From Escherichia coli (GTDB taxonomy: Bacteria > Pseudomonadota > Gammaproteobacteria > Enterobacterales > Enterobacteriaceae), in NCBI RefSeq assembly GCF_044647545.1, contig NZ_CP172818.1: DNA of 64,000 nucleotides. One strand, 5' to 3'. Positions within the stretch are counted from its first letter, which is position 1; every line of letters starts with the position of its first letter. A model generated the notes under the pieces. That model saw nothing but the letters and a program-made list of their open reading frames with translations, ran no database searches and was not told where the DNA came from. Positions 21,728 through 46,622 of the stretch are shown in pieces. The translations under genes and the position numbers were made by a program.

Positions 21728-21735
21728 GGAGATAA

Positions 21736-22206
<471 letters not shown>

Positions 22207-22323
22207 TCGAATAATCGTCTACGCCAGAACGCCTGGGTAATGTTATTGCTCTAACTATATTAATAATTTAGGTTGCTGCACATGCAACTTGAATTATGAC
22301 AGACATAGCCTCAAGGAATAGCT

Positions 22324-22797: not shown

Positions 22798-22799
22798 TC

Positions 22800-24077: not shown

Positions 24078-24089
24078 AAGGAAAATATT

Positions 24090-25076: not shown

Positions 25077-25079
25077 ACC

Positions 25080-26576: not shown

Positions 26577-27235
26577 GCCGACCACTTCTGCAACTGGCCC
26601 TCGACCACTCATCACTTGAAGACGCACAGCGCGACGTGACGCTGTTAAAAGACAGCGTCGATATCGTCGAAGCGGGCACCATTCTCTGCTTAAACGAAGG
26701 GCTTGGCGCAGTGAAAGCCTTGCGCGAACAGTGCCCGAACAAAATCATCGTCGCTGACTGGAAGGTCGCCGACGCGGGTGAAACGCTCGCGCAACAGGCG
26801 TTTGGCGCAGGCGCTAACTGGATGACCATCATCTGCGCCGCACCGCTCGCGACGGTGGAAAAAGGCCACGCGATGGCGCAACGCTGCGGTGGTGAAATTC
26901 AGATCGAGTTGTTCGGTAACTGGACGCTGGACGACGCCCGCGACTGGCATCGTATTGGCGTGCGGCAGGCCATTTATCATCGCGGTCGCGACGCGCAGGC
27001 CAGCGGGCAACAGTGGGGGGAGGCCGATCTGGCACGCATGAAGGCGCTTTCCGATATCGGCCTTGAGCTTTCCATTACCGGCGGTATTACTCCTGCTGAT
27101 CTGCCACTGTTTAAAGATATCCGCGTAAAGGCGTTTATTGCCGGACGGGCGCTGGCAGGCGCGGCAAATCCGGTGCAGGTGGCTGGCGATTTCCATGCAC
27201 AAATTGATGCCATCTGGGGAGGTGCGCGTGCGTAA
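26573..27235 (+). CDS. sgbH: 3-keto-L-gulonate-6-phosphate decarboxylase
   Basis: 220-aa ORF; ATGA start/stop overlap with lyxK. Confidence 0.93.
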
Positions 27236-28088
27236 TCATCCGTTAGGGATTTATGAAAAAGCGCTGGCGAAAGATCTCTCCTGGCCGGAGCGGCTGGTGC
27301 TGGCAAAAAGCTGTGGCTTTGATTTTGTCGAAATGTCGGTGGATGAAACCGACGAACGGCTCTCACGTCTTGACTGGAGCGCCGCACAACGTGCTTCGCT
27401 GGTCACTGCGATGATCGAAACGGGTGTTGCCATTCCGTCAATGTGCCTGTCTGCCCATCGTCGTTTTCCCTTTGGCAGCCGGGACGAGGCAGTGCGCGAA
27501 CGGGCGCGGGAAATCATGAGTAAAGCGATTCGCCTGGCGCGCGATCTCGGCATTCGCACCATCCAGCTGGCAGGTTATGACGTCTATTACGAAGACCACG
27601 ACGAAGGCACCCAACAACGTTTTGCTGAAGGGCTGGCGTGGGCAGTCGAACAGGCGGCGGCATCACAAGTCATGCTGGCGGTGGAGATTATGGATACCGC
27701 GTTTATGAACTCCATCAGCAAATGGAAAAAATGGGACGAGATGCTCGCCTCGCCGTGGTTCACCGTCTACCCGGACGTCGGCAACCTCAGCGCCTGGGGC
27801 AATGATGTTCCCGCCGAACTGAAACTGGGCATTGACCGTATCGCCGCGATCCACCTGAAAGACACCCTGCCAGTCACCGGGCAAAGCCCCGGACAGTTCC
27901 GTGATGTGCCGTTTGGCGAAGGCTGCGTCGATTTCGTTGGCATCTTCAAAACGCTGCATGAACTGAACTATCGCGGATCATTTCTGATTGAGATGTGGAC
28001 CGAAAAAGCCAAAGAGCCGGTGCTGGAGATTATTCAGGCGCGGCGCTGGATTGAAGCGCGTATGCAGGAGGCCGGATTTATATGTTAG
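27228..28088 (+). CDS. sgbU: L-xylulose-5-phosphate 3-epimerase
   Basis: ORF 27138..28088; start set at GTG 27228 giving [13 protein letters not shown]..., 286 aa; overlaps sgbH by 8 nt. Confidence 0.9.
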
Positions 28089-28777
28089 AGCAACTAAAAG
28101 CCGACGTGCTGGCGGCGAATCTGGCGCTTCCCGTTCATCATCTGGTGACGTTCACCTGGGGCAATGTCAGCGCGGTAGACGAAACGCGGCAATGGATGGT
28201 AATCAAACCTTCCGGCGTCGAGTACAACGTGATGACCGCCGACGATATGGTAGTGGTTGAGATAGCCACCGGTAAGGTGGTGGAAGGCAGAAAAAAACCC
28301 TCGTCCGACACGCCAACGCATCTGGCGCTTTACCGTCGCTATGCCGAAATTGGCGGTATTGTGCATACCCACTCGCGCCACGCCACCATCTGGTCGCAGG
28401 CCGGGCTGGATCTCCCCGCCTGGGGCACCACGCACGCTGATTACTTCTATGGTGCCATCCCCTGCACGCGACAGATGACCGCAGAGGAGATCAACGGCGA
28501 GTATGAATACCAGACCGGCGAAGTGATCATTAAAACCTTCGAAGAACGTGGGTTGAACCCGGCACAAATCCCGGCTGTACTGGTGCATTCTCACGGCCCG
28601 TTCGCCTGGGGAAAAAACGCCGCCGATGCGGTGCATAACGCCGTGGTGCTGGAAGAGTGCGCCTATATGGGCCTGTTCTCGCGCCAGCTTGCACCGCAGC
28701 TCCCTGCGATGCAAAACGAACTGCTGGATAAGCACTACCTGCGTAAACATGGGGCCAATGCCTATTACGGGCAGTAA
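28082..28777 (+). CDS. sgbE: L-ribulose-5-phosphate 4-epimerase
   Basis: 231-aa class II aldolase/epimerase ORF; 7-nt overlap with sgbU. Confidence 0.93.
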
Positions 28778-28807
28778 TCCCTCACGCCGGGGCTTCATTG
28801 CCCCGGC

Positions 28808-28915
28808 ACTACGAATTGATATGTTCCTTGCTGTAACGTCGCTTCCACGCAGCTGGCGTTAAGCCGGTGTGTTTGCGAAAAATCTGCCGGAAATAGCCGA
28901 CGTCATTAAACCGTA
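28808..28915 (-). pseudogene. AraC/XylS-family regulator C-terminal remnant (HTH fragment, frame interrupted upstream)
   Basis: Minus-strand translation ...LAVVGLFQAIRFNDVGYFRQIFRKHTGLTPAAWKRRYSKEHINS* fits the AraC C-terminal HTH pattern; an in-frame TGA lies just upstream. Confidence 0.35.
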
Positions 28916-29123
28916 TTGCCTGGAACAGGCCGACAACGGCGAGTCACTGCATAACCTGTGGCTGCCCGCCGATGCGCCATTTACGACATTTGAAGGTAAT
29001 GGATTGTTCCGCCATAAGATCTTAATCCAGGCACCGGGTTACCGGTATGAACAGAGCAATCCAGAGCAGCAACCGCTGTGGCATTACGACAGTGCGCCAG
29101 CCGCACCGACATCCACCGGTGAA

Positions 29124-29864
29124 TTAAAAACGCCAGCTCACCCCGGTGACAAAGGTAAAACTCTCATTACGATCAATCATCGGGCTGTCGGTAATCTCTT
29201 CCGGCAGCTCGCTGTATCCTGCGCTCGCCATCAATACGACGTGCTCTCCTATCGGGTATTTTGCCGTCAGGCTGACATAGGGCACCCAGGCATCCTGCGC
29301 GGAATAACTTGCCAGACCGCTACGACGGGACTCACTCTCTGAAATGCCATAGTAATAGTCACTGAAATTCTCGTCATAATAGAGAACGCCCAGCGCAGGT
29401 GTCAGCGACAGACGACCTATCTGCATTTTGTGGAATACCGATAGCTCCCCCACCCAGCCGTTGCTGTTATCCAGAACGTCCGCAGCTGCAGAGGCTTTCA
29501 CGGTTCCCCAACGCTCGTGGTGATACCAGGCAACCCCCGCCATAGCCGTACTATCACGCTTATCAAGCTGTTGCATGGCATAATCGTCATTATCGGTAGG
29601 GTCAAATTCCAGCGGCATCCAGGATGCGGTCAGGCTAAGTTCATTTTTTTCACTTTGCGACAGAATAAAACCTAACGTGGTCTGACGAACATAAAAAGTA
29701 TCACCTTCATAACTAATCAGCGGAATTGCCTTCGTATTTTCATTATAACCGCGATAAGGCGATTCATTATAAGCCGCACCAGCACCAATGGATAATTCAG
29801 AAGCAGTTGCGCTTGCCATAAAAGGCAACGCAAATAACGCCACAATATTGCGATTAATTAACAT
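29124..29864 (-). CDS. yiaT: Outer membrane protein (MipA/OmpV family)
   Basis: 246-aa ORF with signal peptide, beta-strand-like alternation and C-terminal F. Confidence 0.88.
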   Translation of the reverse strand: MLINRNIVALFALPFMASATASELSIGAGAAYNESPYRGYNENTKAIPLISYEGDTFYVRQTTLGFILSQSEKNELSLTASWMPLEFDPTDNDDYAMQQLDKRDSTAMAGVAWYHHERWGTVKASAAADVLDNSNGWVGELSVFHKMQIGRLSLTPALGVLYYDENFSDYYYGISESESRRSGLASYSAQDAWVPYVSLTAKYPIGEHVVLMASAGYSELPEEITDSPMIDRNESFTFVTGVSWRF

Positions 29865-29987
29865 GTCCGGTATTCCATTTTAAAATAAGATAAAAAAGAG
29901 TCGGCATAATAATGCTTACAATTTCTCCGGTGCAAGATTCATATTTATATAGTAATATATAAAATTATATATAATTGGGCTGTTGCG

Positions 29988-30962
29988 ATGACAAAATTAC
30001 AACTTAAGTACCGGGAGTTAAAAATTATCTCGGTAATCGCTGCCAGTGAAAATATCAGCCATGCCGCGACTGTACTTGGCATCGCACAGGCCAACGTCAG
30101 CAAATATCTTGCTGATTTTGAATCAAAAGTGGGTTTAAAAGTCTTTGACCGAACCACCCGGCAGCTGATGCTCACACCTTTTGGCACCGCGCTGTTACCG
30201 TACATCAACGACATGCTGGACAGAAACGAGCAACTTAATAATTTTATTGCAGATTATAAGCATGAGAAACGTGGTCGGGTCACCATCTACGCCCCAACCG
30301 GCATAATTACCTATTTATCCAAACATGTAATCGATAAAATTAAAGATATCGGTGATATCACCTTATCGCTAAAAACCTGCAATCTTGAGCGTAATGCCTT
30401 TTATGAAGGCGTCGAATTTCCTGATGATTGTGATGTTTTAATCAGCTACGCTCCACCAAAAGATGAATCGCTGGTTGCCAGTTTTATTACCCAATATGCC
30501 GTAACCGCTTATGCCAGCCAGCGCTATCTTGAGAAACATCCCATTAGCCGTCCTGACGAACTCGAACATCACTCCTGTATTTTGATCGACTCGATGATGA
30601 TCGACGACGCGAATATCTGGCGCTTCAACGTCGCCGGGAGTAAAGAGGTGCGGGATTATCGCGTGAAGGGAAATTACGTTTGCGACAACACGCAATCTGC
30701 GCTGGAGCTGGCACGAAATCACCTGGGGATTGTGTTTGCGCCAGACAAAAGTGTGCAGAGCGACCTGCAAGACGGCACGCTGGTGCCCTGCTTTCAGCAA
30801 CCCTATGAATGGTGGCTGGATCTGGTGGCTATCTTCCGTAAACGGGAATACCAGCCCTGGCGGGTCCAGTATGTGCTGGATGAAATGCTGCGTGAAATTC
30901 GCCACCAGCTTGCTCAGTCGCAGCAACTGCGGCCTGAACAAGCGGCGGAAAGCGAAGATTAA
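29988..30962 (+). CDS. yiaU: LysR-family transcriptional regulator
   Basis: 324-aa ORF with N-terminal LysR HTH; divergent-convergent with yiaT/yiaV. Confidence 0.9.
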
Positions 30963-32095
30963 TGATCGAGATAAAGGTAATGCACCCAGCTGGTCATGCG
31001 TAATAGCACTTTGCGCATCACCGAGACATGGCTGAAATGATCAGAGTAAACCGCCACCTGGGCGTAAATACCGTCTGGTAAAGCGCTCAAATCAGTGTGC
31101 TCATCCAGTTCAATGGTCGCGATAACGCCATCTGAACCCGGCGCTGTGTTTAACGTCTGTAAGGTGCCGGTCGACTGATAAGCTCCGCCGGGAACGGCTG
31201 GACTAATGGCTGCCAGCTTACCGCTGAATACCTTACCTGGCAGAGCATTAAACACCACTTCCGCATCGTCGCCAGGAGCCAGTCGCAGCAAGGAGTTCTG
31301 ACGGAACTGCGCCACGATTTGTCGTTTCTGATCGGGTATAAACACCATCACCGGACGTAGCGGCAGCGACGCGGCATAGGTACCCGGACGAATCAGTACC
31401 TGGGTCACATAACCATCGCTCGGCGCACGCACTATCGTCTGCTCAAGGTTATATTTTGCTTCCGCGAGCTGTGCTTTCAGGCTGGCGATTTGAGAATGTT
31501 CACCCAACACCAGGCTATCCAGCTGGCTCTGGATCTGTTTTTGTTCCGCCGCCGATGACTTCACGGAGGCTTCCTGCGCCAGATAATTTTGCCGCGCCAC
31601 ATCGATATCGCGTTCTGAAAACGGGTTTACTTTCGCCTGGCTGCCACGTGCGTAACGCTGATACTCTTTAGCGAATTTATCCCGCGTGGCCTTTGCCTGC
31701 TGAGTATTCGCCGCCATCTCATCTAACTCTGCGCCCAACGCCCGCTGTTTATGTTCTGCGGTAACGATATCCGCCATCAGCCGATCCACCCGCGCCTGAT
31801 AACGCGTCGGGTCCAGTCGAAATAGCACCTCACCTTTTTTAATCAGCGTATTTTTCTTATCCGTCACTTCAATCACCACACCAGTCACCTGTGGGACAAC
31901 AGGAATAGAAATAACCGCTTTTTGCGCTTTAAAGGTATACGGATGGTTATAGTTCATTAACAGAATTAGACCGCTGACAATAAATATGCCACCCAGGGCC
32001 GCTGTGGGAATGGTCCATTTATTTACAGGAATTTTGAAGATCTTAAACATTGCCCATGCAAAAGCCACATAGGTCAAAATAATCAGTAAATCCAT
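30959..32095 (-). CDS. yiaV: HlyD-family membrane fusion protein
   Basis: 378-aa ORF, N-terminal TM, coiled-coil middle; paralog of yibH. Confidence 0.9.
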
Positions 32096-32100
32096 AAGTA

Positions 32101-32326
32101 TTACTCGGCAGAAGAGGTCTTGATGTCGGCGAGCTGTTTCTCCAGCCCGGCAATACGCTGTTGTAGTTGCACAACGCCGGAGGAGTCATGGTTTTGCATT
32201 CCCCATCCCCGCTCCGGGCGGTAAAGCGTGGCCCAAATCCACAAAATGGCCAGATAACATGCAGCGTAAAAAGACTCACCCAACCAGCAACATGAATGGC
32301 GTCGGCATGAGGATGATTACGTTTTG
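32101..32326 (-). pseudogene. yiaW: yiaW (DUF3302 small membrane protein), C-terminal part, separated from its 5' part by IS1
   Basis: Translation ...[46 protein letters not shown] matches the YibI paralog; reading frame runs into the IS1 left end. Confidence 0.8.
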
Positions 32327-32351
32327 GTGATGCTGCCAACTTACTGATTTA

Positions 32352-32657
32352 GTGTATGATGGTGTTTTTGAGGTGCTCCAGTGGCTTCTGTTTCTATCAG
32401 CTGTCCCTCCTGTTCAGCTACTTGACGGGGTGGTGCGTAACGGCAAAAGCACCGCCGGACATCAGCGTTATCTCTGCTCTCACTGCCGTAAAACATGGCA
32501 ACTGCAGTTCACTTACACCGCTTCTCAACCCGGTACGCACCAGAAAATCATTGATATGGCCATGAATGGCGTTGGATGCCGGGCAACCGCCCGCATTATG
32601 GGCGTTGGCCTCAACGCGATTTTACGTCACTTAAAAAACTCAGGCCGCAGTCGGTAA
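32352..32657 (+). CDS. insA: IS1 InsA-like ORF (body in frame with ...[23 protein letters not shown]...; N-terminus out of frame with the canonical GTG start at 32381)
   Basis: ORF-track translation; canonical-looking start GTG 32381 [14 protein letters not shown] reaches TGA at 32423. Confidence 0.7.
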
Positions 32658-33079
32658 CCTCGCGCATACAGCCGGGCAGTGACGTCATCGTCTGCGCGGA
32701 AATGGACGAACAGTGGGGCTATGTCGGGGCTAAATCGCGCCAGCGCTGGCTGTTTTACGCGTATGACAGGCTCCGGAAGACGGTTGTTGCGCACGTATTC
32801 GGTGAACGCACTATGGCGACGCTGGGGCGTCTTATGAGCCTGCTGTCACCCTTTGACGTGGTGATATGGATGACGGATGGCTGGCCGCTGTATGAATCCC
32901 GCCTGAAGGGAAAGCTGCACGTAATCAGCAAGCGATATACGCAGCGAATTGAGCGGCATAACCTGAATCTGAGGCAGCACCTGGCACGGCTGGGACGGAA
33001 GTCGCTGTCGTTCTCAAAATCGGTGGAGCTGCATGACAAAGTCATCGGGCATTATCTGAACATAAAACACTATCAATAA
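32576..33079 (+). CDS. insB: IS1 InsB transposase frame
   Basis: 167-aa ORF ...[21 protein letters not shown]...[48 protein letters not shown]. Confidence 0.85.
32631..32641 (+). promoter_or_regulatory. IS1 programmed -1 ribosomal frameshift motif (A6C) joining insA and insB
   Basis: ttaaaaaactc at the insA/insB junction. Confidence 0.6.
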
Positions 33080-33094
33080 GTTGGAGTCATTACC

Positions 33095-33204
33095 TTACGT
33101 TTTTTAGCAATCAGGTAGGGAATATCATGTAAAATAATAATCCCATAGAATATCACCAGAAATACAAAAATAAGCACTCCCAGTGCAAAATAGTCCAGGA
33201 ACAT
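33095..33204 (-). pseudogene. yiaW: yiaW 5' part ([37 protein letters not shown]...), separated from the 3' part by IS1
   Basis: Reverse complement of 33104-33204 encodes the N-terminus homologous to YibI; joining the two parts minus one TSD copy restores a 109-codon frame. Confidence 0.8.
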
Positions 33205-33317
33205 ATTTCCCTCAAAGAATATAAAAAAGAACAATTAACGCATATTATGAAATGCCATGATGCAGTGCAACTTCCTTATTTATATAACGACATATTGTTT
33301 TTTATATACTTTCTGAA

Positions 33318-33530
33318 ATGTGCTGTCTGGTTTTTCAACAGGACGAGGTTTATCATATTGAAATAGTGGAACTATTGGCCAAACTAATGAATAACTCCAG
33401 TAAAACATCCACAGTACAGATTAAGCGTATTAAACCTTCAATTATCTACCGTTTATTGCTGATTGGCCTCGGATCACCAATGGTGATTTACGGCCTGGTT
33501 CGCCCGCTAACCATCGAAACGCGAGATTAA
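33318..33530 (+). CDS. Hypothetical small ORF with a C-terminal hydrophobic segment (possible small membrane protein)
   Basis: 70-aa ORF; internal Met gives a 47-aa peptide MNNSSKTSTVQIKRIKPSIIYRLLLIGLGSPMVIYGLV...; no recognisable homology. Confidence 0.2.
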   Translation: MCCLVFQQDEVYHIEIVELLAKLMNNSSKTSTVQIKRIKPSIIYRLLLIGLGSPMVIYGLVRPLTIETRD

Positions 33531-33638
33531 ACGCCCGGCAATACACGCCGGGCAGCTTCTGCCAGAAACGCACTTCTGTTGGCGTAGTCTGGGTTATTGC
33601 GCACGTAGGTTTAAAACGTAAATTGTAACAACGTGCGC

Positions 33639-33735
33639 TTTGTTTATGCCGGATGCGGCGTGTACCTTATCCGGCCTACGGTCAGGTTCCCGTAGGCATG
33701 ATAAGACGCGTAAGCGTCGCATCAGGCAATGAATA
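33639..33735. repeat. REP elements downstream of aldB
   Basis: gccggatgcggcgtgtaccttatccggcctacgg and gacgcgtaagcgtcgcatcaggc palindromes. Confidence 0.5.
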
Positions 33736-33758
33736 CCCAATGCGACCAGCTTCTTACA

Positions 33759-35297
33759 TCAGAACAGCCCCAACGGTTTATCCGAGTAGCTCACCAGCAG
33801 GCACTTGGTTTGCTGGTAATGCTCAAGCATCATCTTATGGGTTTCGCGTCCGATGCCCGACTGTTTGTAGCCGCCAAACGCCGCATGTGCCGGGTAAGCG
33901 TGATAACAGTTGGTCCACACGCGCCCGGCCTGAATGCCGCGCCCCATCTTATAGGCCAGATTACCGTTGCGGCTCCAGACACCCGCGCCCAGGCCATATT
34001 GCGTGTCGTTCGCCAGCTCCAGCGCCTCGTCCATCGTTTTGAAGGTGGTTACCGCCAGCACCGGACCAAAAATCTCCTCCTGGAACACGCGCATATTATT
34101 CTGACCAAACAAAATCGTCGGTTCGAGGTAGTAACCGTCTTTCAGTTCGCCTTCCAGCAGCTTGCGCCGCCCGCCGGTGAGCACGTCTGCGCCCTCTTTT
34201 TTACCAATATCAATGTAGTTGAGGATGGTTTCCAGTTGCCCGTGAGAAACCTGCGCCCCCATTTGCGTCACGCTGTCGAGCGGGTTACCGCTGCGAATGC
34301 TTTCGACACGGCGGATGGCGCGTTCCATAAAGCGTTCGTAGATAGACTCCTGCACTAAAGCACGGCTTGGACAGGTGCAAACTTCGCCCTGGTTAAAGGC
34401 AAACAGTGCAAAGCCTTCCAGCGCTTTATCGAAAAAGGCATCTTCTTCATCCATCACATCAGCAAAGAAGATATTTGGGGATTTGCCGCCCAGCTCCAGC
34501 GTCACCGGAATAATGTTTTGCGTGGCGTACTGCATAATTTGTTGGCCCACTTCCGTTGAGCCGGTAAACGCCACTTTGGCGATGCGTTTCGAGGTCGCCA
34601 GATATTCGCCAATTTCTCCGCCCGCACCGTTGACCACGTTCACCACGCCCGGCGGCAGTAAATCACCGACGATTTCCATTAGCAGCAGTACTGAGAGCGG
34701 GGTAAGACGTGCGGGTTTCAGCACCACACAGTTGCCCGCCGCCAGCGCGGGAGCCATTTTCCAGCTCGCCATCAGCAGCGGGAAGTTCCACGGAATAATC
34801 TGCCCCACCACGCCTAACGGTTCGTGGAAGTGATAAGCCACAGTTTCGCTATCCACTTCACTAATACCGCCTTCCTGCGCCCGAATACACGAGGCAAAAT
34901 AGCGAAAATGGTCAATCGCCAGCGGCACATCAGCAGCACTGGTTTCGCGAATGGGTTTGCCGTTATCCCAGGTTTCAGCGGTCGCTAACAGTTCGAGGTT
35001 CTGCTCCATCCGATCGGCAATCTTAAACAGAATCGCCGCGCGATCCTGCACCGAAGTATGCGCCCATTTATCTTTCACTTTGTGCGCAGCATCCAGCGCC
35101 AGATCGATGTCTCGTTTGCCCGAAGACGCCACTTCGCACAGCAGCTGTCCGGTCACCGGCGTCAGGTTCTGGTAATACTCGCCGTCGGCAGGGGCTACCC
35201 ATTCGCCGCCAATAAAGTTGTCGTAGCGGGCTTTTAACTTGAGGGGGAAACCATACTCGCCGGGCTTAATCTGTGCTGAAGGGGGATTATTGGTCAT
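33759..35297 (-). CDS. aldB: Aldehyde dehydrogenase B
   Basis: ORF 33759..35435; start set at [17 protein letters not shown] giving 512 aa. Confidence 0.93.
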
Positions 35298-35461
35298 GAT
35301 CGTCTCCTTGCGGTGTGAGGTATAACAAGGGTAGACGTGACTGGCGAAATCTTCGCCAGTCGATAACAGCTTTACGACGGCTATCACGAATTTACGGGCA
35401 AGGGTTACAGAGATAGTTGAAAAAGCGGCTGACAACTCGCCAGCCGTTGCGGGAATGATGA

Positions 35462-36613
35462 TTACATTGCGGCGCGATAAATCGCCACAATTTCTTCGTG
35501 AGTTGCCTGGATCGGGTTAGTAAAGCCACAGGCATCTTTCAGGGCATTAGTCGCCAGTACCGCGAAATCTTCTTCTTTCACGTTCAGGTCACGCAGGCCT
35601 GCCGGGATATCCACTTTCTTCGCCAGTTCACGGATGGCGTTAATGCAGGCTTCAGCACCTTCCGCGTCGTTTTTACCAGTCACGTTCACGCCCATTGCAG
35701 CGGCACAGTCACGCAGACGTGCTGCAGCGACTTTGCTATTGAATACCTGAACGTGTGGCAGCAGAACAGCATTACATACACCGTGTGGCAGGTTGTAGAA
35801 ACCGCCCAGCTGGTGCGCCATCGCATGAACATAACCCAGAGAAGCATTATTGAACGCCATACCGGCGAGGAACTGGGCATAAGCCATTGCTTCACGCGCT
35901 TTAGCATTGCTGCCATCTTCAACGGCTAACGGCAGATTTTCGGCAATCATGGTCACCGCTTTCAGTGCGCAAGCGTCAGTGATCGGCGTGGCGGCAATAG
36001 AAACATACGCTTCGATAGCGTGCGTTAAGGCATCCATACCCGTTGCGGCGGTCAGTGACTTCGGCATACCGATCATCAGAGAGGAGTCATTGACAGAAAG
36101 CAACGGAGTTACATGTTTATCAACAATCGCCATTTTGATATGACGCGCTTCGTCAGTGATGATGCAGAAACGGGTCATTTCAGAGGCCGTACCCGCCGTG
36201 GTATTGATGGCGATCATCGGCAGCTGCGGTTTTGCAGAGCGGTCAACGCCTTCGTAATCGCGAATATCGCCGCCATTGGCTGCCACCAGCGCAATACCTT
36301 TTGCGCAGTCGTGCGGAGAACCACCGCCTAAGGAGATCACGCTATCGCAATTATTTTCTTTAAGTAATTTCAAACCTGCGGCGACGTTTTCCGTGGTGGG
36401 GTTAGGTTGGGTGCCATCATAAATAACGCTAAAAATATTGCGTTCTTCCAGTGCTTTTTGCACATCACCCGCCATACCCAATTTCGTTAACATATTGTCG
36501 GTGACAATTAAGGTACGGGTAAATCCATAATCTGCCATCATATTCATTGCATCATTCAATGAATCAGCACCAATAACATTCACGGAAGGAATAAAAAAGG
36601 TTGAAGCTGCCAT
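35462..36613 (-). CDS. yiaY: Iron-containing alcohol dehydrogenase
   Basis: 383-aa ORF with Fe-ADH motifs ([16 protein letters not shown]). Confidence 0.9.
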
Positions 36614-36803
36614 AACACACTCCTGAAAGTGTAAAAAAGGGCGGGCAGCTTACTGAGGATTTTCATTTGAAAATATGATCAACATTACCGTTTATTAAAA
36701 TATTTTTAATAAAAAGCACGTTACATTCATCAAATAACGTGCCTTCTTAACATTAATAAGAAATTTTGTATTAATTCATATTTATTATGAATTAATCATT
36801 TCC

Positions 36804-38648
36804 TTATTTTTCCGGAAATAATAATGCGTCGCGCAATAAATGATCATTTCCACGACGACGCGTAAAGCCAATGCGGTCAAAATATTCCAGAATCTGAATT
36901 GCCAGCTTTCGGCCTACGCCTAAGCGATCGCGGAAATCCGCCGCGCAGGTTGAACCACACTCCTGATCGAGATCGCGGATCATATTGGCAAACTCGACAA
37001 TCCGATCGTTACGGTAATAACGATCTTTGACGATCGCGGTAATTATTCCTTGCTGCGCCGCCTGACGTAGCGTCAGACGCATTGCCTGCTCGTCGGTTCC
37101 CGTCTCTTTTGCCAGGTCTCGCACCCACCACGGTTCGTCACCAAACAGTGGCTCTGCTTTTTGCCAGATGGCCTGCTGCTCTTCGCTGAAGCCCGCTTTG
37201 TGATCCGGCAGATGCAGCCAGCCGTGATGACTGAGGATGTCACCGCTTTCACGCATCTTTTCAATCAGCAACAGTACCAGCGCTTCATCTTCCATTGGCA
37301 ACGCCATACGTCGCAGACGTTCGCGCCCAGGACCAGGTTCATCGCGATGTTTCTCATGATAAGTCGCTAATGTGTCGAGAATTTTCCGCTGCCAGCGGGC
37401 GGCAACTGGCGCATTCAACAAGCTGTAACCAGCCTGAATATAGCCAGGCTGTTGCAGCAGTTCGCGCATCCCTTCGCCGTTGAGCTGCCGTGCCCAGGCG
37501 AAATCCGCAAGGTTAACCGCGCCGCGTTCCAGATGAACAGATAACGCATCGGCATCGCTCTGCGCCCGTGCAAGAGACGCCAGCCATTGCAGATATTCCG
37601 GCTTACGCTTACCGCGACGCGGCGGGTTAAGCATCACCACACGCGCCCCCGCCAGCGTGTTGCGGGCCGAGATATCGCGCAGCACTATGCGATCGTTATC
37701 CGCCAGCCACAGCGGCGTGTCGAACACCAGCTCGGCAAGGTTATCTTCCAGCAGCGAAACGCGTCCCGTAACGTGGCTGGCGGCGTGGTGAATATGCAGT
37801 GGCTGCCACTGGGTCAGCGGTGTATGGGTTTGAAGCTCGACTATCACCCGCGTAAACGGCTCCGGCGGCACATCGGCAAGCAGCCAGTCGCCACGGTTAA
37901 TCTGCTCTTTTTCCGCATCACCCGCGATGTTAAGCGCGATACGCTGCCCGGCATGGGCAGTTTCTGTTGGCTGATTTTGCGCATGTAGCGCACGCACGCG
38001 CATCGGTTTATTTACACCAGTCAGCCAGATTGAATCGCCTACCTTCACTTCCCCGCTTAACGCCGTACCGGTGACGACCAGCCCGGCACCTTTTACGGTA
38101 AATGCGCGGTCGATCGCGAGGCGGAAACTATGTTGGCTGGCGTGTTCACGTTCTGGTAACTGAAGCAAATGCTCGCGCAGGGCATCAATTCCCCGACCTT
38201 CGGTTGCTGCGGTGATAAACAGTTTTGCCTCAGCAAAACCGTATTCCCGCAGCACCTCCTTTACCTGGCGTTCAACCTCATCAACACGCGCTTCGTCCAC
38301 GCGATCGGCTTTGGTCAGCGCCACTGTCAGCATCGGGTTACCGGTCAGCTGCAAAATCGCCAGATGCTCACGGGTCTGTGCCATCACGCCGTCATCGCAC
38401 GCCACCACCAACAGCGCGTGATCGATACCACCAACGCCCGCCAGCATGTTGGAAAGAAACTTTTCATGACCGGGAACGTCGATAAAACCCGGAACACGAC
38501 CATCCGGCTGCGGCCAGTAGGCATAGCCGAGATCGATGGTCATGCCGCGCTTTTTTTCTTCCGGCAGACGGTCGGCATTTACGCCAGTAATCGCCTGCAA
38601 TAAGGTTGTTTTGCCGTGGTCAACGTGTCCGGCAGTCGCAATAATCAT
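36804..38648 (-). CDS. selB: Selenocysteine-specific translation elongation factor
   Basis: 614-aa ORF starting [16 protein letters not shown] (GTPase G1 motif). Confidence 0.95.
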
Positions 38649-40036
38649 TTCAACAACATCTCCAAAAACCGTTGCTCATCTTCAAGGCAGCGTAAATCCA
38701 GCCACAATCGTCCGTCATAAATACGACCAATCACCGGCACTGGCAATTCACGCCAGCGGGCGGCTAATGACTCAAGGTGGCTACCGCGTCCATCATGGGG
38801 TGTAAACGTTAATGCCGCGCTCGGCAGGCGATCAACCGGCAGCGAACCACTGCCAATCTGCGAAAGACATGGCATAACCTGTACCGCAAACTCCGCGCCG
38901 TAATGTGCGGCAAGGGGAGCCTGTAAACGTTGTGCCTGGATTTGAATGACCTCTGCGCTGCGGGTAAGCAGGCGCAGGGTCGGTAATTTTTTACTCAGAG
39001 CTTCAGGGTGTAAATAAAGACGCAACGTGGCTTCCAGCGCCGCAAGGGTCATTTTATCCGCGCGTAATGCACGCTTCAGCGGGTGGCTTTGCAGTCGGGC
39101 GATCATCTCTTTTTTACCAACAATAATTCCTGCCTGCGGCCCGCCTAACAACTTGTCGCCGGAGAAGCTCACCAGACTGACGCCCGCCGCAATCAACTCC
39201 TGCGGCATTGGCTCTTTCGGCAAACCGTACTGGCTAAGATCGACCAGCGAGCCACTGCCTAAATCAGTCACTACGGGGACATCCAGCTCTTTGCCGAGCG
39301 CCACCAGTTCCGCTTCATCTATCGCTTTGGTGAATCCCTGAATGCTGTAGTTACTGGTATGTACTTTCATCAACAGCGCGGTATTTTCATTCACCGCCTG
39401 GCGATAATCATTAGCGTGCGTGCGGTTGGTGGTCCCCACTTCGTGTAGGGTGCAGCCTGCCTGACGCATAACATCGGGAATACGAAACGCGCCGCCAATC
39501 TCCACCAGTTCGCCGCGAGAAACCACCACCTCTTTCCCGCTGGCAGTGGCCGCCAACATCAATAACACCGCCGCCGCATTGTTATTAACGATACAGGCAT
39601 CTTCCGCCCCCGTAATACGGCACAGCAGCTGCGCCAGCGCCCGATCGCGATGTCCGCGTCCGGCGTCGTCCAGATCGTACTCGAGGGTCACTGGCGAACG
39701 CATAGCCTTCGTAACGGCTTCCACCGCGGCTTCCGCCTGTAAAGCTCGCCCAAGGTTGGTATGCAGCACGGTTCCCGTCAGGTTGATTACCGGACGCAGC
39801 GCGCTTTGCGCCTCTTTCGTCAACCGGGCATCGACTTCTTGCGCCCAGTTTTCACACCACGCGGGAAGCGTCTGGCTGTCTCGAATCACTTCTCGCGCTT
39901 CGTCAAGCATCTGACGCAGCAATTCCACCACGCGGGTGTGACCATAAGTATCACGCAAAGAAAGGAAGGAGCTATCGCGCAATAAGCGATCAATAGCCGG
40001 AAGTTGACTATAGAGGGAACGCGTTTCGGTTGTCAT
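38645..40036 (-). CDS. selA: L-seryl-tRNA(Sec) selenium transferase
   Basis: 463-aa ORF; 4-nt overlap with selB. Confidence 0.95.
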
Positions 40037-40133
40037 AGGAAACCTGGCTGATCAAGGCCCTCTCACACGGAGAAGGGCGTTTAACATAACCACGGATTGT
40101 AACGTGAGATGGGTCAGGAGGACATATCGCGCA

Positions 40134-40742
40134 TCAAGCCTTTGGCGGTTCGGTGCGAGCAAAACTTTCGCGGCTAAACAGGTTTTCGACCAGTTTGACT
40201 AAGTGTGGGCGGTCGACACACCAGCCTGGCGCAACGCGGCGGAAATTGAGATATCCGACGGCACAGGCAATGGCGATAGTCGCCAGATTGACCGTATCGG
40301 TTTTGAGCGTGCCATCGACCAGATATCCTTCCAGCACATCCAGACTGCGGTTGATTTTCTCCCGCTGGCGTAACAATTCATCTTCAGACTGCTGCGCCGC
40401 CGGACGCGCCTGTTCACGCACCGATACCAGCCCGGCATCCATAATGCCATCCGCCAGTGCCTCAATTTTGCGCACTCGCAACGACTCCAGCGGATCGCGC
40501 GGCAACATCGCCGGAGCGACATTCATTAATTCAATATATTCAGCGATGATCGCCGAATCAAACCAACATTCACCCTCTTCGGTCACCAGCACCGGCACTT
40601 TCCCTAACGGGTTAAATTGCGCCACGCCGTTGTCCGCGTTATAGGGCAGTTCATTAATAAATTCGAAAGTTATGCCCTTTTCTAACAACAGAATAGAAAG
40701 TTTGCGTACAAACGGGCTGGTGTAGCTACCGACGAGTTTCAT
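40134..40742 (-). CDS. yibF: Glutathione S-transferase-like protein
   Basis: 202-aa ORF with GST fold pattern. Confidence 0.88.
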
Positions 40743-40970
40743 GCCGAGTCCTTTGTGCGAGGAAAAATATCAGTATGGCCTGGTGATGGGAAAAAGGGCA
40801 GAAAATGTTGATGGTTTGTTACTTCCCAATAAATCACATATTTATCATGGTGATATAAATATTTTCCTAATTGTTCTTATCTGACAGATATCTCACTTAA
40901 GGCTTTCTTATAAATCTGTAGGGTTTCGCCTGTCAGCAGACAAATAACCCGATAAAACAAGGATGAGCAG

Positions 40971-43900
40971 ATGAGCGGAAAACCGGCGGCGCGTCAGGGC
41001 GACATGACGCAGTATGGCGGTAGCATTGTCCAGGGTTCAGCCGGGGTACGTATTGGTGCCCCCACCGGCGTGGCCTGTTCGGTGTGCCCCGGCGGAGTAA
41101 CGTCCGGCCATCCGGTCAATCCGCTGCTCGGTGCAAAGGTCCTTCCCGGCGAGACAGACATCGCCCTGCCCGGCCCGCTGCCGTTCATTCTCTCCCGCAC
41201 CTACAGCAGTTACCGGACAAAAACGCCCGCGCCGGTGGGGAGCCTCGGCCCCGGCTGGAAAATGCCTGCGGATATCCGCTTACAGCTGCGCGATAACACA
41301 CTGATACTCAGTGATAACGGCGGCAGAAGCCTGTATTTTGAGCACCTGTTTCCCGGTGAGGACGGTTACAGCCGCAGCGAGTCACTCTGGCTGGTGCGCG
41401 GCGGCGTGGCGAAACTGGATGAAGGTCACCGGCTGGCCGCACTCTGGCAGGCGCTGCCGGAAGAGCTTCGCCTGAGTCCGCATCGTTATCTGGCGACGAA
41501 CAGTCCACAGGGGCCGTGGTGGGTACTCGGCTGGTGTGAGCGGGTGCCGGAGGCGGATGAGGTGCTGCCTGCGCCGCTGCCGCCGTACCGGGTACTGACC
41601 GGGCTGGTGGACCGCTTCGGGCGCACACAGACGTTCCACCGTGAGGCTGGCGGCGAATTCAGCGGCGAAATCACCGGCGTGACGGATGGCGCAGGCCGTC
41701 ACTTCCGGCTGGTACTGACCACGCAGGCGCTGCGGGCAGAAGAGGCCCGGCAGAAGGCCATTTCCGGCGGGACGGAACCGTCCGCTTTTCCTGATACCCT
41801 GCCGGACTACACGGAATATGGCCGGGACAACGGTATCCGTCTGTCTGCCGTGTGGCTGACACACGACCCTGAATACCCGGAGAATTTACCTGCCGCGCCG
41901 CTGGTGCGCTATGGCTGGACGCCACGCGGCGAACTGGCGGTGGTGTATGACCGCAGCAATACACAGGTGCGCAGCTTTACTTACGATGATAAATACCGGG
42001 GCCGGATGGTGGCGCACCGTCACACGGGCCGGCCGGAAATCCGTTACCGTTACGACAGTGACGGGCGGGTGACAGAACAGCTAAACCCGGCAGGCTTAAG
42101 CTACACGTATCAGTATGAGAAAGACCGCATCACCATCACCGACAGCCTGGACCGCCGTGAAGTCCTGCATACCGCAGGCGAAGGCGGCCTGAAGCGGGTG
42201 GTGAAAAAGGAACACGCGGACGGCAGCGTCACGCAGAGTCAGTTTGACGCGGTGGGCAGGCTTAAGACACAGACGGATGCCGCAGGCCGGACAACAGAAT
42301 ACAGCCCGGATGTGGTGACGGGCCTCATCACGCGCATCACCACGCCGGATGGCAGGGCATCGGCGTTTTACTATAACCACCACAGCCAGTTAACGTCAGC
42401 CACCGGGCCTGACGGGCTGGAAATACGCCGGGAATATGATGAATCCGGCCGTCTGATTCAGGAAACCGCCCCTGACGGCGATATCACCCGCTACCGTTAT
42501 GATAATCCACACAGTGACTTCCCCTGCGCAACGGAAGATGCCACCGGCAGCCGGAAAACCATGACGTGGAGCCGTTACGGTCAGTTGCTGAGCTTCACCG
42601 ACTGTTCCGGCTACCAGACCCGTTATGACCATGACCGCTTCGGGCAGATGACGGCGGTGCACCGCGAGGAAGGCCTGAGCCAGTGCCGCGCATACGACAG
42701 CCGTGGACAGTTAATTGCCGTGAAAGACACGCAGGGCCATGAAACGCGGTATGAATACAACATCGCCGGTGACCTGACCGCCGTCATTGCCCCGGACGGC
42801 AGCAGAAACGGGACACAGTACGATGCGTGGGGAAAGGCCATCCGTACCACGCAGGGCGGGCTGACCCGCAGTATGGAATACGATGCTGCAGGACGGGTCA
42901 TCCGCCTGACAAACGAAAACGGCAGCCACACCACCTTCCGTTACGATGTACTCGACCGGCTGATACAGGAAACCGGCTTTGACGGCCGCACACAGCGTTA
43001 CCACCACGACCTGACCGGCAAACTTATCCGCAGCGAGGATGAGGGGCTGGTCACCCACTGGCACTATGACGAAGCAGACCGCATCACGCAGCGAACGGTG
43101 AATGGTGAAACCGCAGAACAGTGGCGGTACGACGAACGCGGCTGGCTGACACAAATCAGCCATCTCAGCGAAGGGCACCGGGTGACGGTGCATTACGGGT
43201 ATGATGAGAAAGGCCGCCTGACCGGTGAGCGCCAGACGGTGCATCATCCGCAGACGGAAGCACTGCTCTGGCAGCATGAGACCAGACATGCGTACAACGC
43301 GCAGGGGCTGGCGAACCGCTGTATACCGGACAACCTGCCCGCCGTGGAATGGCTGACTTATGGCAGTGGTTACCTGGCAGGGATGAAACTCGGCGACACA
43401 CCGCTGGTGGAGTACACCCGCGACCGCCTGCACCGGGAAACGCTGCGCAGCTTCGGCCGTTATGAACTCACCACCGCTTATACCCCTGCCGGGCAGTTAC
43501 AGAGCCAGCACCTGAACAGCCTGCAGTATGACCGCGATTACACCTGGAACGACAACGGCGAACTCATTCGCATCAGCAGCCCGCGCCAGACCCGGAGTTA
43601 CAGCTACAGCGACTCCGGCAGGCTGACCGGCGTTCACACCACCGCAGCGAACCTGGATATCCGCATCCCGTATGCCACGGACCCGGCAGGTAACCGCCTG
43701 CCCGACCCGGAGCTGCACCCGGACAGCACCCTCAGCATGTGGCCGGATAACCGTATCGCCCGTGACGCGCACTATCTTTACCGGTATGACCGTCACGGCA
43801 GGCTGACGGAGAAAACCGACCTCATCCCGGAAGGGGTTATCCGCACGGATGATGAGCGGACTCACCGGTACCATTACGACAGCCGGCACCGGCTGGTGCA

Positions 43901-44750
43901 CTACACGCGGACACAATATGCAGAGCCGCTGGTCGAAAGTCGCTATCTTTACGACCCGCTGGGCCGCAGGGTGGCAAAACGGGTGTGGCGGCGTGAACGG
44001 GACCTGACGGGCTGGATGTCGCTGTCACGGAAACCGGAAGTGACCTGGTACGGCTGGGACGGCGACCGCCTGACCACGATACAGAACGACAGAACCCGCA
44101 TCCAGACGGTTTATCAGCCGGGGAGCTTCACACCACTCATCAGGGTCGAAACCGCCACCGGTGAGCAGGCGAAAACGCAGCGCCGCAGCCTGGCGGATGC
44201 GCTTCAGCAGTCCGGCGGCGAAGACGGTGGCAGTGTGGTGTTCCCGCCGGTGCTGGTGCAGATGCTCGACCGGCTGGAAAGTGAAATCCTTACTGACCGG
44301 GTGAGTGAGGAAAGCCGCCGCTGGCTGGCATCGTGCGGCCTGACGGTGGCGCAGATGCAAAACCAGATGGACCCGGTGTACACGCCGGCGCGAAAAATCC
44401 ACCTGTACCACTGCGACCATCGCGGCCTGCCGCTGGCGCTTGTCAGCACGGAAGGGGCAACAGAATGGTGCGCAGAATACGATGAGTGGGGCAACCTGCT
44501 GAATGAAGAGAACCCGCACCAGCTGCAACAGCTTATCCGCCTGCCGGGTCAGCAGTATGATGAGGAGTCCGGCCTGTATTACAACCGCCACCGCTATTAT
44601 GACCCGCTGCAGGGGCGGTATATCACTCAGGATCCGATTGGGCTGAAGGGGGGATGGAATTTTTATCAGTATCCGTTGAATCCGATATCAGACATCGAGC
44701 CCCCTGGGTTTATCTATGTGGGAGGATGCAAAATCGGGGGCATGTACTAA
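40971..44750 (+). CDS. rhsA: Rhs-family polymorphic toxin core protein: N-terminal PAAR motif, YD repeats, Rhs core; very short 12-residue tail after an EPPGF motif
   Basis: 1259-aa ORF; N-terminus [26 protein letters not shown] (PAAR); many YD/YxYD repeats; ends ...[39 protein letters not shown]. Confidence 0.92.
44238..44686 (+). repeat. Rhs core 3'-end repeat, copy A (inside rhsA)
   Basis: About 450 bp near-identical to 46623-47069 at a constant offset of about 2384 bp. Confidence 0.9.
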
Positions 44751-45754
44751 TGGTCTTTGCGGCATATCAGCTGTGATGAGAGGTGCATAAGTTTTTCATA
44801 GACCGCATATGACGCCTTAATAACAATAAAATTAAAATATATTTTCAATAAAATCAATAGCCAAATAAAATAAATAAATAAATTTTCCCTGCACCTAGAA
44901 CGTGGAGAAAGTTAGTACATACTATGGATGCAATAGCATTGACATAATGGTGGGACGAATATTTTCACTTCGACTAATGTGGTAGATATCAGATTTGGAC
45001 GAAATATTTTAAGCAAAGATGAAAATAATTAAAATAAACAACGAATAAATACCACCCCATTAATAAACAATAGATAACCACGGGAAGGAAATAACAAACG
45101 GAAAAGGATCCGATGCCAGAGTTATCGGTAATATTAAAAAAAAAAATATAAATAAAATAAATAAATTTTATTTAGCACTCCCATTTTTTTTACACAACAT
45201 GGCCATAATAATAATTTTAAAATAATAATGACGGGAAAGAGAGAAAGAAGGTAAACTGTAAAAGGATTACAAAAATTTGGTCTACAAATACAGGTTATAG
45301 TAAAAAAATATTTTTTAGAATTTATTGTATCTTTTTTTTTTTACAACAACACAGGTCGCAGTGTAATTACAGAGATATTAAAATAATGCTCAAATTTATG
45401 AAGCAGTGAGGCAGAAGAATATACATATAAACGCTTCATTAAAACAAGTGGGTAATTTGGTTAAAAATAAACTAACATTGAATTACAATATATGTTAAAA
45501 TCAGGCAACCAAAAAGAAAAAATATAAAATATGATTAACAACAAGTCTTGTTGAAGGCACCATTCACTCAGACCAAATTGCTGGTGGGGTTTTTATTAGA
45601 AAATAGGCAAAAATGATGGGGTAATTCTGAATTTTGGCCACGGAAAATAAGTATGTAAGGATAATCAAACATCGTGTGCGCTGATGGCAGAGTAGGTGGA
45701 GGACTCCAGACAGTCAAACGATAAAAAAAGATAGCCTTTATGGAGGCTCCTGCA
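44751..45754. other. Extremely AT-rich block without ORFs of 60 aa or more between rhsA and yibA; contains A11 (45136-45146) and T11 (45332-45342) homopolymers
   Basis: Visibly low GC and low complexity; ORF track shows no ORF on either strand. Confidence 0.8.
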
Positions 45755-46597
45755 ATGTCAAATACATACCAGAAAAGAAAGGCAAGTAAAGAGTATGGTT
45801 TATATAATCAATGTAAGAAACTAAATGATGATGAATTATTTCGCTTACTTGATGATCACAATTCCTTGAAAAGGATTTCATCTGCCAGAGTATTACAGTT
45901 AAGAGGTGGGCAAGACGCTGTTAGATTGGTAATTGAGTTCTGCTCTGATAAAAATTATATCCGTAGAGATATCGGAGCATTTATACTCGGGCAAATAAAA
46001 ATTTGCAAAAAATGCGAAGATAATGTGTTTAATATTTTGAACAATATGGCATTGAATGATAAGAGCGCTTGCGTTCGAGCTACGGCAATCGAGTCAACGG
46101 CTCAGCGATGCAAGAAAAACCCAATTTATTCACCTAAAATAGTAGAACAATCTCAAATTACTGCTTTTGATAAATCGACTAATGTCAGACGTGCTACAGC
46201 ATTTGCTATTTCTGTTATCAATGATAAAGCAACAATTCCACTATTGATTAATCTGTTAAAAGATCCAAATGGAGATGTCAGAAACTGGGCCGCATTTGCA
46301 ATAAATATCAATAAATATGATAATAGTGATATTAGGGATTGTTTTGTGGAGATGCTTCAGGATAAAAATGAGGAAGTCCGTATTGAAGCAATAATCGGAC
46401 TTTCCTACAGAAAAGATAAAAGGGTTTTATCTGTTTTATGCGATGAGTTAAAAAAAAATACTGTTTATGATGATATCATTGAAGCTGCGGGTGAATTAGG
46501 TGATAAAACGCTACTTCCTGTTTTAGATACTATGTTGTACAAGTTTGATGACAATGAAATTATAACTTCCGCTATTGATAAGCTGAAGCGTTCATAG
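45755..46597 (+). CDS. yibA: HEAT-repeat protein YibA
   Basis: ORF 45740..46597; start set at MSNTYQKRKASKEYGLYNQ giving 280 aa; repeated helical-repeat pattern. Confidence 0.85.
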   Translation: MSNTYQKRKASKEYGLYNQCKKLNDDELFRLLDDHNSLKRISSARVLQLRGGQDAVRLVIEFCSDKNYIRRDIGAFILGQIKICKKCEDNVFNILNNMALNDKSACVRATAIESTAQRCKKNPIYSPKIVEQSQITAFDKSTNVRRATAFAISVINDKATIPLLINLLKDPNGDVRNWAAFAININKYDNSDIRDCFVEMLQDKNEEVRIEAIIGLSYRKDKRVLSVLCDELKKNTVYDDIIEAAGELGDKTLLPVLDTMLYKFDDNEIITSAIDKLKRS

Positions 46598-46622
46598 CGT
46601 GAGTTGCCTATGCACAGTGGGG

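What the first reader, a model, noticed from the sequence alone, without database searches (positions are those of the whole stretch)
45755..46597. HEAT-repeat protein YibA sits where an immunity gene would be, but is separated from the rhsA stop by 1 kb
In Rhs loci the gene after the tip is normally the cognate immunity gene. Here the main rhsA has no substantive tip, and a 280-aa HEAT-repeat protein follows after an AT-rich gap. Its codon usage looks AT-rich like the accessory part of the locus. It may be an orphan immunity protein retained after loss of its toxin.
Basis: inference. Interest (0 to 1): 0.4.

Follow-up and report, generated by a model that had tools for sequence, protein, structure and literature searches.

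The report
Orphan YibA immunity gene, Rhs locus
The gene is the well-known E. coli yibA, a HEAT-repeat immunity protein whose own Rhs toxin tip has been replaced by a different toxin/immunity pair, and the "empty 1-kb gap" in front of it is a badly corrupted copy of that pair, most likely a sequencing or assembly error.

Summary
The ORF at 45755-46597 (+) is real. It is E. coli yibA: 280 aa, 279/280 identical to PDB 1OYZ, with Pfam HEAT_2 and HEAT hits. The orphan-immunity reading holds, but it is already known. In K-12, yibA lies 20 bp after the RhsA tip, which is an Ntox34 domain. Vlazny & Hill 1995 (cited in PMC3150448) showed that yibA neutralises RhsA C-terminal toxicity. Zhang et al. 2012 list Ntox34 with Imm-HEAT. 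In the window only the last 10 codons of the Ntox34 tip remain before yibA.

The description of the surroundings is wrong. The 1,004-nt "gap" is a corrupted copy of a DUF4329 (RhsB-type) tip plus its immunity gene yhhH. Both are intact in clonal relatives that match the flanks at 99.9-100%. The damage is indel-dominated and base-specific: in the larger zone G is lost 53% of the time and A 6%. It is bounded by rhs core-end repeats and matches nothing above 67% in 5,426 complete genomes. A +1 G inside DPLGL causes the "tipless" rhs. This is most likely an assembly artefact.

About 1,200 of the 2,948 genomes with full-length yibA lack the Ntox34 junction, so orphan yibA is common. Interest is low.

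The parts
40971..44750 (+). Main rhs gene: DUF6531/PAAR-like N-terminus, YD-repeat core, RHS core end. As given it is a 1,259-aa ORF that ends 21 codons after a +1 G at 44699 inside the DPLGL motif. Relatives have a 1,411-aa protein with a DUF4329 tip.
   Evidence: the only differences from L002 over 38400-44698 are 44391 and a patch at 44660-44675, then +G at 44699. One search gives the Pfam domains of the relatives' gene; this exact 1,259-aa product is not on record anywhere in the collection.
44765..45560 (+). Corrupted zone 1: remains of the DUF4329 (RhsB-type) toxin tip and the yhhH (Imm-NTF2-2) immunity gene. No ORF survives.
   Evidence: error rate is 18-45% per 50 nt, with 133 deletions, 60 insertions and 72 substitutions; the best match in 5,426 genomes is rhsB/yhhH at 67%. 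Pfam hits for the intact reference genes. GC 0.274 against 0.347 in the reference.
45561..45702 (+). 3' flank of the yhhH cassette. It is intact apart from two differences at 45599 and 45601 and matches relatives.
45703..45734 (+). Remnant of the Ntox34 tip of RhsA: the last 10 codons (SRQSNDKKR) plus the stop. This is where K-12 homology resumes and marks the recombination joint.
   Evidence: K-12 alignment starts at 45703 = L001 6843.
45755..46597 (+). yibA: an intact 280-aa HEAT-repeat (Imm-HEAT) immunity gene, orphaned here.
46639..47148 (+). Displaced rhs core-end fragment with the start of an orphan tip, cut short by a 1-nt deletion at about 47116. Relatives have a 181-aa product.
47720..49200 (+). 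Corrupted zone 2: remains of the rest of the orphan module (100-aa and 116-aa ORFs in relatives) and of an ISAs1-family transposase gene.
   Evidence: 492 deletions, 39 insertions and 69 substitutions. G deleted 53%, C 33%, T 16%, A 6%; annotation of relatives.
49285..50284 (+). Last orphan module of the locus, intact: rhs core-end fragment fused to a Tlde1 domain (49285-49758), followed by an Imm57 immunity gene (49763-50284).
   Evidence: (99.7% to L007).

Best explanation
yibA encodes the HEAT-repeat immunity protein (Imm-HEAT) that binds and neutralises the Ntox34 toxin tip of the K-12-type RhsA.

In this strain's lineage the Ntox34 tip was replaced by recombination at the rhs core end. 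The incoming cassette carries a DUF4329 (RhsB-type) tip and its own immunity gene, yhhH. yibA was left intact as an immunity-only orphan 104 bp after yhhH, preceded by just the last 10 codons of its former toxin.

Kept in this form, it would protect the cell against Ntox34-armed RhsA delivered by neighbouring E. coli. That last step is inference.

The apparent 1-kb non-coding gap and the 'tipless' rhsA are most likely not biological. They are a corrupted rendering of the DUF4329 tip + yhhH, most plausibly low-quality bridging sequence laid between repeat-bounded contigs and only partly polished.
For: Shown here:
- Identity to K-12 YibA and PDB 1OYZ; HEAT repeats.
- In K-12, yibA starts 20 bp after rhsA, and that rhsA tip is Ntox34 at E=1.1e-43.
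- The same pairing occurs in Salmonella: the YibA homolog is 74% identical, lies 22 bp after the tip, and the tip scores Ntox34 at 1.9e-39.
- It also occurs in a metagenome: the homolog is 43% identical and its upstream ORF scores Ntox34 at 2.5e-12.
- The window and K-12 share only the last ~31 nt of the tip ORF before yibA.
- Clonal relatives carry rhs(DUF4329)-yhhH-104 bp-yibA.
- Census of 5,426 complete genomes: full-length yibA in 2,948 and the Ntox34-yibA junction in 1,747.

From the literature:
- RhsA C-terminal toxicity is neutralised by yibA (PMC3150448, citing Vlazny & Hill 1995; also PMC7259588).
- Ntox34 is listed with Imm-HEAT and RHS (PMC3482391).

For the artefact reading:
- Flanks are 99.9-100% identical to L023 and L002.
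- Inside the zones error is 18-55%, indel-dominated and base-specific.
- Part of the reference is present twice.
- The first and last errors (44699 and about 49217) fall at rhs core-end repeat copies 44603-44711 and 49212-49320.
- Both zones cover sequence that has paralogs elsewhere in E. coli genomes: yhhH-yibA' at the rhsB locus, and ISAs1.
- No complete genome matches zone 1 above 67%.
Against: - No experiment here shows that this allele (A59V relative to K-12) protects against Ntox34.
- The original 1995 paper could not be read. Its result is taken from citing papers.
- Two YibA-like proteins at 44-51% identity stand alone among housekeeping genes, so the family is not exclusively toxin-linked.
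- A K-12 yibA::Tn5 mutant has general stress phenotypes (PMC2824699).
- The artefact reading cannot be proved without the reads. The error profile is not a simple gradient, and G loss dominates in both halves of zone 1. A two-opposite-read-tails model therefore does not fit, and the bridging model is inference.
Confidence: 0.85

Rival explanations
1. The gap is genuine. The main rhsA really lost its tip, and the DUF4329 tip, yhhH and the downstream orphan module have really decayed in this strain through some intense local mutational process. YibA would then be the only survivor.
For: The sequence as given has no ORF of 50 aa or more in 44751-45739. It carries a frameshift in DPLGL. GC falls from 0.35 to 0.26-0.27 in the two zones, in the direction of AT-biased decay.
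Against: Flanks and 20+ kb of the surrounding genome are 99.9-100% identical to relatives with intact genes, so there was no time for 30% divergence. Changes are mostly indels: 492 deletions against 69 substitutions in zone 2. Loss is strongly base-specific (G 53%, A 6%), which matches no known replication or repair process. The damaged domain begins and ends at rhs repeat copies. None of 5,426 complete genomes and no gene on record shares it.
Confidence: 0.05
2. YibA is chiefly a cytosolic stress-tolerance or 'lyase'-type HEAT protein whose position in the Rhs locus is incidental. It is retained for that function rather than for immunity.
For: [quoted passage not shown] There is a weak PBS-lyase HEAT-like hit, 25.7 bits. 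Homologs at 44-51% identity stand alone in housekeeping neighbourhoods.
Against: The K-12 mutant still carries the Ntox34 RhsA, so its phenotype can be read as unneutralised toxin. Adjacency to Ntox34 is conserved down to 43% identity. Neutralisation of toxicity is reported (PMC3150448). The gene is absent from 2,293 of 5,426 genomes and close relatives are confined to E. coli, so it behaves as an accessory gene rather than a core one.
Confidence: 0.08
3. YibA is the cognate immunity protein, or a second one, for the toxin now carried by the main rhs gene (DUF4329).
For: The rhs(DUF4329)-yhhH-yibA order is conserved. The yhhH-to-HEAT junction is present in 2,968 genomes and at two loci.
Against: yhhH is an Imm-NTF2-2 immunity protein that overlaps the end of the DUF4329 tip ORF in relatives. 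At the K-12 rhsB locus the yibA copy after yhhH is a 351-nt pseudogene, yet the DUF4329 RhsB is kept. YibA homologs pair with Ntox34 elsewhere.
Confidence: 0.02

Closest known systems
E. coli K-12 YibA (b3594; dsORF-a1 of the RhsA element; PDB 1OYZ)
   Same: 99.6% identical protein (279/280), same length, same chromosomal locus between yibF and yibH, same downstream rhs core fragment.
   Different: In K-12 it directly follows its cognate Ntox34 tip. Here that tip is gone except for 10 codons, and a DUF4329/yhhH cassette lies upstream. There is one substitution, A59V.
Imm-HEAT immunity proteins of Ntox34 polymorphic toxins (Zhang et al. 2012, PMC3482391)
   Same: HEAT-repeat all-alpha protein in an RHS locus. 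Homologs in Salmonella and a metagenome sit next to Ntox34.
   Different: This copy has no adjacent toxin. Some family relatives at 44-51% identity are not in toxin loci at all.
Orphan rhs-CT/rhsI modules produced by C-terminal displacement (Poole et al. 2011, PMC3150448)
   Same: It lies downstream of the main rhs/immunity pair in an array of displaced modules, and the immunity gene is still intact.
   Different: Typical orphans keep a piece of core plus the toxin tip. Here the toxin part is deleted to a 10-codon stub, so this is an immunity-only orphan.
rhsB-yhhH-yibA' arrangement at the K-12 rhsB locus
   Same: Same composite of DUF4329 tip, yhhH, 104-bp spacer and yibA start.
   Different: At rhsB the yibA copy is cut to 351 nt, with the ISEc1 transposase gene yhhI directly downstream. 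In the window's relatives it is full length.

Membership tests
YibA / Imm-HEAT (immunity to Ntox34) | HEAT-repeat all-alpha protein of about 280 aa, orthologous to K-12 YibA | tested here: met
   279/280 identical to 1OYZ; HEAT_2 at 5e-23 and HEAT at 1.9e-17.
YibA / Imm-HEAT (immunity to Ntox34) | Encoded immediately downstream of an Ntox34 toxin domain | tested here: not met
   In the window only the last 10 codons of the tip remain. The feature is met in K-12, Salmonella and a metagenomic homolog. This copy is therefore a family member by orthology but lacks its partner.
YibA / Imm-HEAT (immunity to Ntox34) | Neutralises the cognate toxin | not testable with these tools
   Reported for K-12 by Vlazny & Hill 1995, as cited in PMC3150448 and PMC7259588. 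The primary paper is not held.
Orphan immunity gene in an Rhs array | Lies within the rhs locus, downstream of the main rhs gene and its own immunity gene | tested here: met
   Gene order in clonal relatives is rhs-yhhH-yibA-core fragment-...-Tlde1-Imm57. The window is collinear with this.
Orphan immunity gene in an Rhs array | No functional cognate toxin in the locus, with the immunity ORF intact | tested here: met
   The K-12 Ntox34 tip (L001 6454-6842) aligns nowhere in window 40001-51000. The yibA ORF is intact. The rest of the source genome was not available.
Orphan immunity gene in an Rhs array | Orphan retains a core fragment plus toxin tip (rhs-CT/rhsI module) | tested here: not met
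   Directly upstream of yibA is the yhhH cassette flank and a 10-codon stub, with no core fragment or tip.
PBS-lyase HEAT-like 'lyase' (database name) | Phycobiliprotein lyase function or context | not tested
   There is only a 25.7-bit repeat-level hit to PF03130. E. coli has no phycobilisome context. The name 'lyase' in some records is repeat-based.

The most novel reading that the evidence does not exclude
The two indel-riddled zones (44765-45560 and 47720-49200) are real. They would be the product of an unknown, sharply localised, base-specific mutational process (G lost more than C, more than T, more than A) that destroys toxin, immunity and transposase cassettes inside an Rhs array while sparing yibA and the last Tlde1/Imm57 module.
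Probability: 0.03. Interest if true: 0.8.

Novelty: already known. Interest (0 to 1): 0.12.

Why it matters
For biology it matters little. YibA as the RhsA (Ntox34) immunity protein, and orphan immunity genes in Rhs arrays, are both established.

Three modest points may be useful.
- About 40% of the complete E. coli genomes with full-length yibA lack the Ntox34 junction, so immunity-only retention is common.
- The DUF4329/yhhH/yibA composite occurs at both the rhsA and rhsB loci.
- The window contains about 2.3 kb of corrupted sequence. That corruption creates a false "tipless rhsA" and a false "non-coding AT-rich gap". Any other finding drawn from 44.7-49.2 kb of this window should be treated with caution.

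Tried and rejected
- **Divergent lineage.** I first suspected the window came from a divergent lineage, because it was only 97% identical to the first genome fetched. This was rejected when WP5-S18-ESBL-08 and M25631H proved 99.9-100% identical over most shared segments.
- **Two low-quality read tails meeting in the middle.** This is not supported. Error does not rise monotonically, and G loss dominates in both halves of zone 1.
- **Weak G after A (dye-terminator pattern).** There is no clear dependence on the preceding base.
- **Cross-species context by the search for related loci on genome contigs.** The scan returned only three E. coli-like contigs in MAGs. Contexts were obtained instead through the search for homologous proteins and the look-up of encoding contigs.
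- **Finding the source assembly by exact protein.** The 1,259-aa Rhs is not on record. One look-up used wrong coordinates.
- **Other scans.** The promoter/terminator scan around yibA found no more than chance. Rfam gave no hit in 44000-50500. No solved structure exists for the Ntox34 domain. The primary 1995 paper is not held.

Full report
**1. What is at the coordinates**

The window around 36.8-52 kb is the E. coli selB-selA-yibF / rhsA locus / yibH-yibI region. The ORF at 45755-46597 (+) is intact and 280 codons long. A GGAGG motif lies 8 nt before the ATG.

Its product is 279/280 identical to PDB 1OYZ, "hypothetical protein yibA", at E=1.9e-182. It hits Pfam HEAT_2 at 5e-23 and HEAT at 1.9e-17. 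GC is 0.337, against 0.619 for the rhs core. The gene and its coordinates are therefore confirmed.

**2. The "gap" is not a gap**

The closest relatives I compared are E. coli WP5-S18-ESBL-08 (L023) and M25631H (L002).
- L023 differs by 1 mismatch over 20683-28912, none over 33756-41275, and 5 over 49203-57388.
- L002 is identical over 38400-44390.

In these relatives, and in ten further assemblies that encode exactly this YibA, the locus reads as follows:
- an rhs gene of 1,411 aa (1,408 in two assemblies) with a DUF4329 tip;
- yhhH, an Imm-NTF2-2 immunity protein that overlaps the end of the tip ORF;
- 104 bp of spacer;
- yibA;
- an rhs core fragment with an orphan tip;
- two small ORFs;
- an ISAs1 transposase gene;
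- an rhs fragment fused to Tlde1;
- Imm57, then yibH.

The window is collinear with this order. However, 44765-45560 aligns to the DUF4329 tip + yhhH with 18-45% error per 50 nt. The differences are about 133 deletions, 60 insertions and 72 substitutions. About 93 nt of the reference is represented twice.

The "tipless" rhs results from one extra G at 44699 inside the DPLGL motif: GAGCCCCCTGGG against GACCCCCTGGG.

A second damaged zone, about 47720-49200, covers the orphan module and the ISAs1 gene. It has 492 deletions, 39 insertions and 69 substitutions. Isolated 1-nt indels lie at 45601, 47116, 47237, 47394 and 47537.

**3. Real decay or artefact?**

Several features argue against biology.
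- The flanks are clonal with genomes that have intact genes.
- The changes are dominated by indels and are base-specific. In zone 2, 53% of G, 33% of C, 16% of T and 6% of A are deleted.
- GC falls from about 0.35 to about 0.26-0.27 as a result.
- The first and last errors (44699 and about 49217) coincide with copies of the rhs core-end repeat at 44603-44711 and 49212-49320. The error-free island ends at the third copy, 46986-47094.
- Both zones cover sequence that has paralogs elsewhere in E. coli genomes: the yhhH-yibA' composite at the rhsB locus, and ISAs1.
- No complete E. coli genome out of 5,426 matches zone 1 above 67%.
- The truncated 1,259-aa Rhs is not on record among 153 billion gene positions.

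My inference is that low-quality bridging sequence was laid between repeat-bounded contigs and only partly polished. I cannot prove this without the reads. I put genuine local hypermutation at a few percent.

**4. What YibA is**

In K-12, yibA starts 20 bp after rhsA. The K-12 RhsA tip is an Ntox34 domain at E=1.1e-43.

Poole et al. 2011 (PMC3150448) state that Hill and colleagues showed two things. The RhsA C-terminal region blocks recovery of stationary-phase cells, and this inhibition is neutralised by yibA. PMC7259588 gives the same account for "dsORF-a1". Zhang et al. 2012 (PMC3482391) list Ntox34 with immunity "Imm-HEAT" and RHS repeats.

I checked the pairing independently.
- A Salmonella homolog (74% identity) sits 22 bp after an Rhs fragment whose tip scores Ntox34 at 1.9e-39.
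- A metagenomic homolog (43%) overlaps the end of an Ntox34 ORF at 2.5e-12. In a second contig it follows an Ntox34 C-terminal remnant.
- Another 43% homolog lies in the downstream array of an Rhs gene, next to a second HEAT gene.
- Two homologs at 44-51% stand alone among housekeeping genes, so the wider HEAT family is not exclusively toxin-linked.
- Close relatives are confined to E. coli-type sequence.

**5. Why it is an orphan here**

K-12 homology upstream of yibA resumes only at 45703. That leaves the last 10 codons (SRQSNDKKR) and the stop codon of the Ntox34 tip ORF. Upstream of that point the sequence is the 3' flank of the yhhH cassette. The cognate toxin was therefore removed by replacement, not by decay of the current tip.

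The same composite exists at the K-12 rhsB locus. There the yibA copy is a 351-nt pseudogene, with the ISEc1 transposase gene yhhI directly downstream.

Across 5,426 complete genomes:
- full-length yibA occurs in 2,948;
- the Ntox34-yibA junction occurs in 1,747;
- the yhhH-to-HEAT junction occurs in 2,968.

Roughly 1,200 genomes therefore carry a full-length yibA without the Ntox34 junction.

**6. Mechanism**

*Shown or reported.* YibA is a HEAT-repeat alpha-solenoid with a solved structure (1OYZ). It is encoded next to Ntox34 tips in several lineages and is reported to neutralise RhsA C-terminal toxicity.

*Inferred.* It acts by binding the toxin domain, as other polymorphic-toxin immunity proteins do. 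In orphan form it protects against Ntox34-armed RhsA delivered by neighbouring strains.

The biochemical activity of Ntox34 was not examined here. PMC9635880 lists it among characterised predicted nuclease-type toxin domains, and no structure of the domain is in the PDB.

**7. Rivals**

- *A general stress role.* Han et al. 2010 found yibA::Tn5 hyper-susceptible to killing by nalidixic acid, UV, H2O2 and SDS (PMC2824699). This is not excluded. However, the K-12 mutant retains the toxin, which offers a simpler explanation.
- *Immunity to the DUF4329 tip.* This is unlikely, because yhhH fills that role and yibA is dispensable at the rhsB locus.

**8. Verdict**

The gene is real and the orphan-immunity idea is right, but both are already known. 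The features that made the locus look odd are most likely sequence corruption. Interest is low.

Noticed in passing
window 47720-49200 (sporadic indels from 47116): A second heavily corrupted zone covers an orphan Rhs tip/immunity module and an ISAs1-family transposase gene that are intact in clonal relatives. Damage is deletion-dominated (492 deletions, 39 insertions, 69 substitutions), with G lost 53% of the time and A 6%.
   Followed up: yes
window 44603-44711, 46986-47094, 49212-49320: Three copies of the ~109-nt rhs core-end repeat. The corrupted domain starts inside the first copy and ends inside the third. The error-free yibA island ends at the second copy.
   Followed up: partly
window 44660-44675: A patch of 8 substitutions changes NLYGYQLNP to NFYQYPLNP, the variant carried by the other core-end copies. 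This is either gene conversion between rhs copies or polishing with reads from paralogs.
   Followed up: no
L034 3818-4168 (K-12-type rhsB locus): A truncated yibA pseudogene of 351 nt follows yhhH at the rhsB locus, with the ISEc1 transposase gene yhhI directly downstream. The DUF4329/yhhH/yibA composite therefore exists at two rhs loci, and the junction is present in 2,968 of 5,426 genomes.
   Followed up: partly
window 49285-50284: An intact terminal orphan module: an rhs core-end fragment fused to a Tlde1 domain (157-aa ORF from a TTG start), followed by an Imm57 immunity gene. It is 99.7% identical to relatives.
   Followed up: partly
window 32326-33094: An IS1 copy, 99.2% identical to the IS1A of another strain. 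It lies between the yiaW side and the aldB side, at a different site from the comparison genome.
   Followed up: no
window 28912-33756, 35410, 41275, 57388-57484: Relative to its near-identical relative WP5-S18-ESBL-08, the window lacks several features: a Fic gene, an IS21 insertion in rhs, and a YadA-like adhesin/DUF3251 island. It also carries the K-12-type yiaT-yiaW segment instead of a GH127/MFS/HicAB/type I restriction island. The accessory content is therefore mosaic within an otherwise clonal frame.
   Followed up: no
L029 2947-3837; L031 6001-6855: YibA-like HEAT proteins at 51% and 44% identity are encoded alone among housekeeping genes (near recC; near clpXP and a tail-specific protease). 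This hints at a non-immunity branch or ancestor of the family.
   Followed up: no
L030 4955-6879: Two different HEAT-repeat genes lie in tandem in the downstream array of an Rhs gene in a Logan assembly. This may be a poly-immunity arrangement of Imm-HEAT genes.
   Followed up: no
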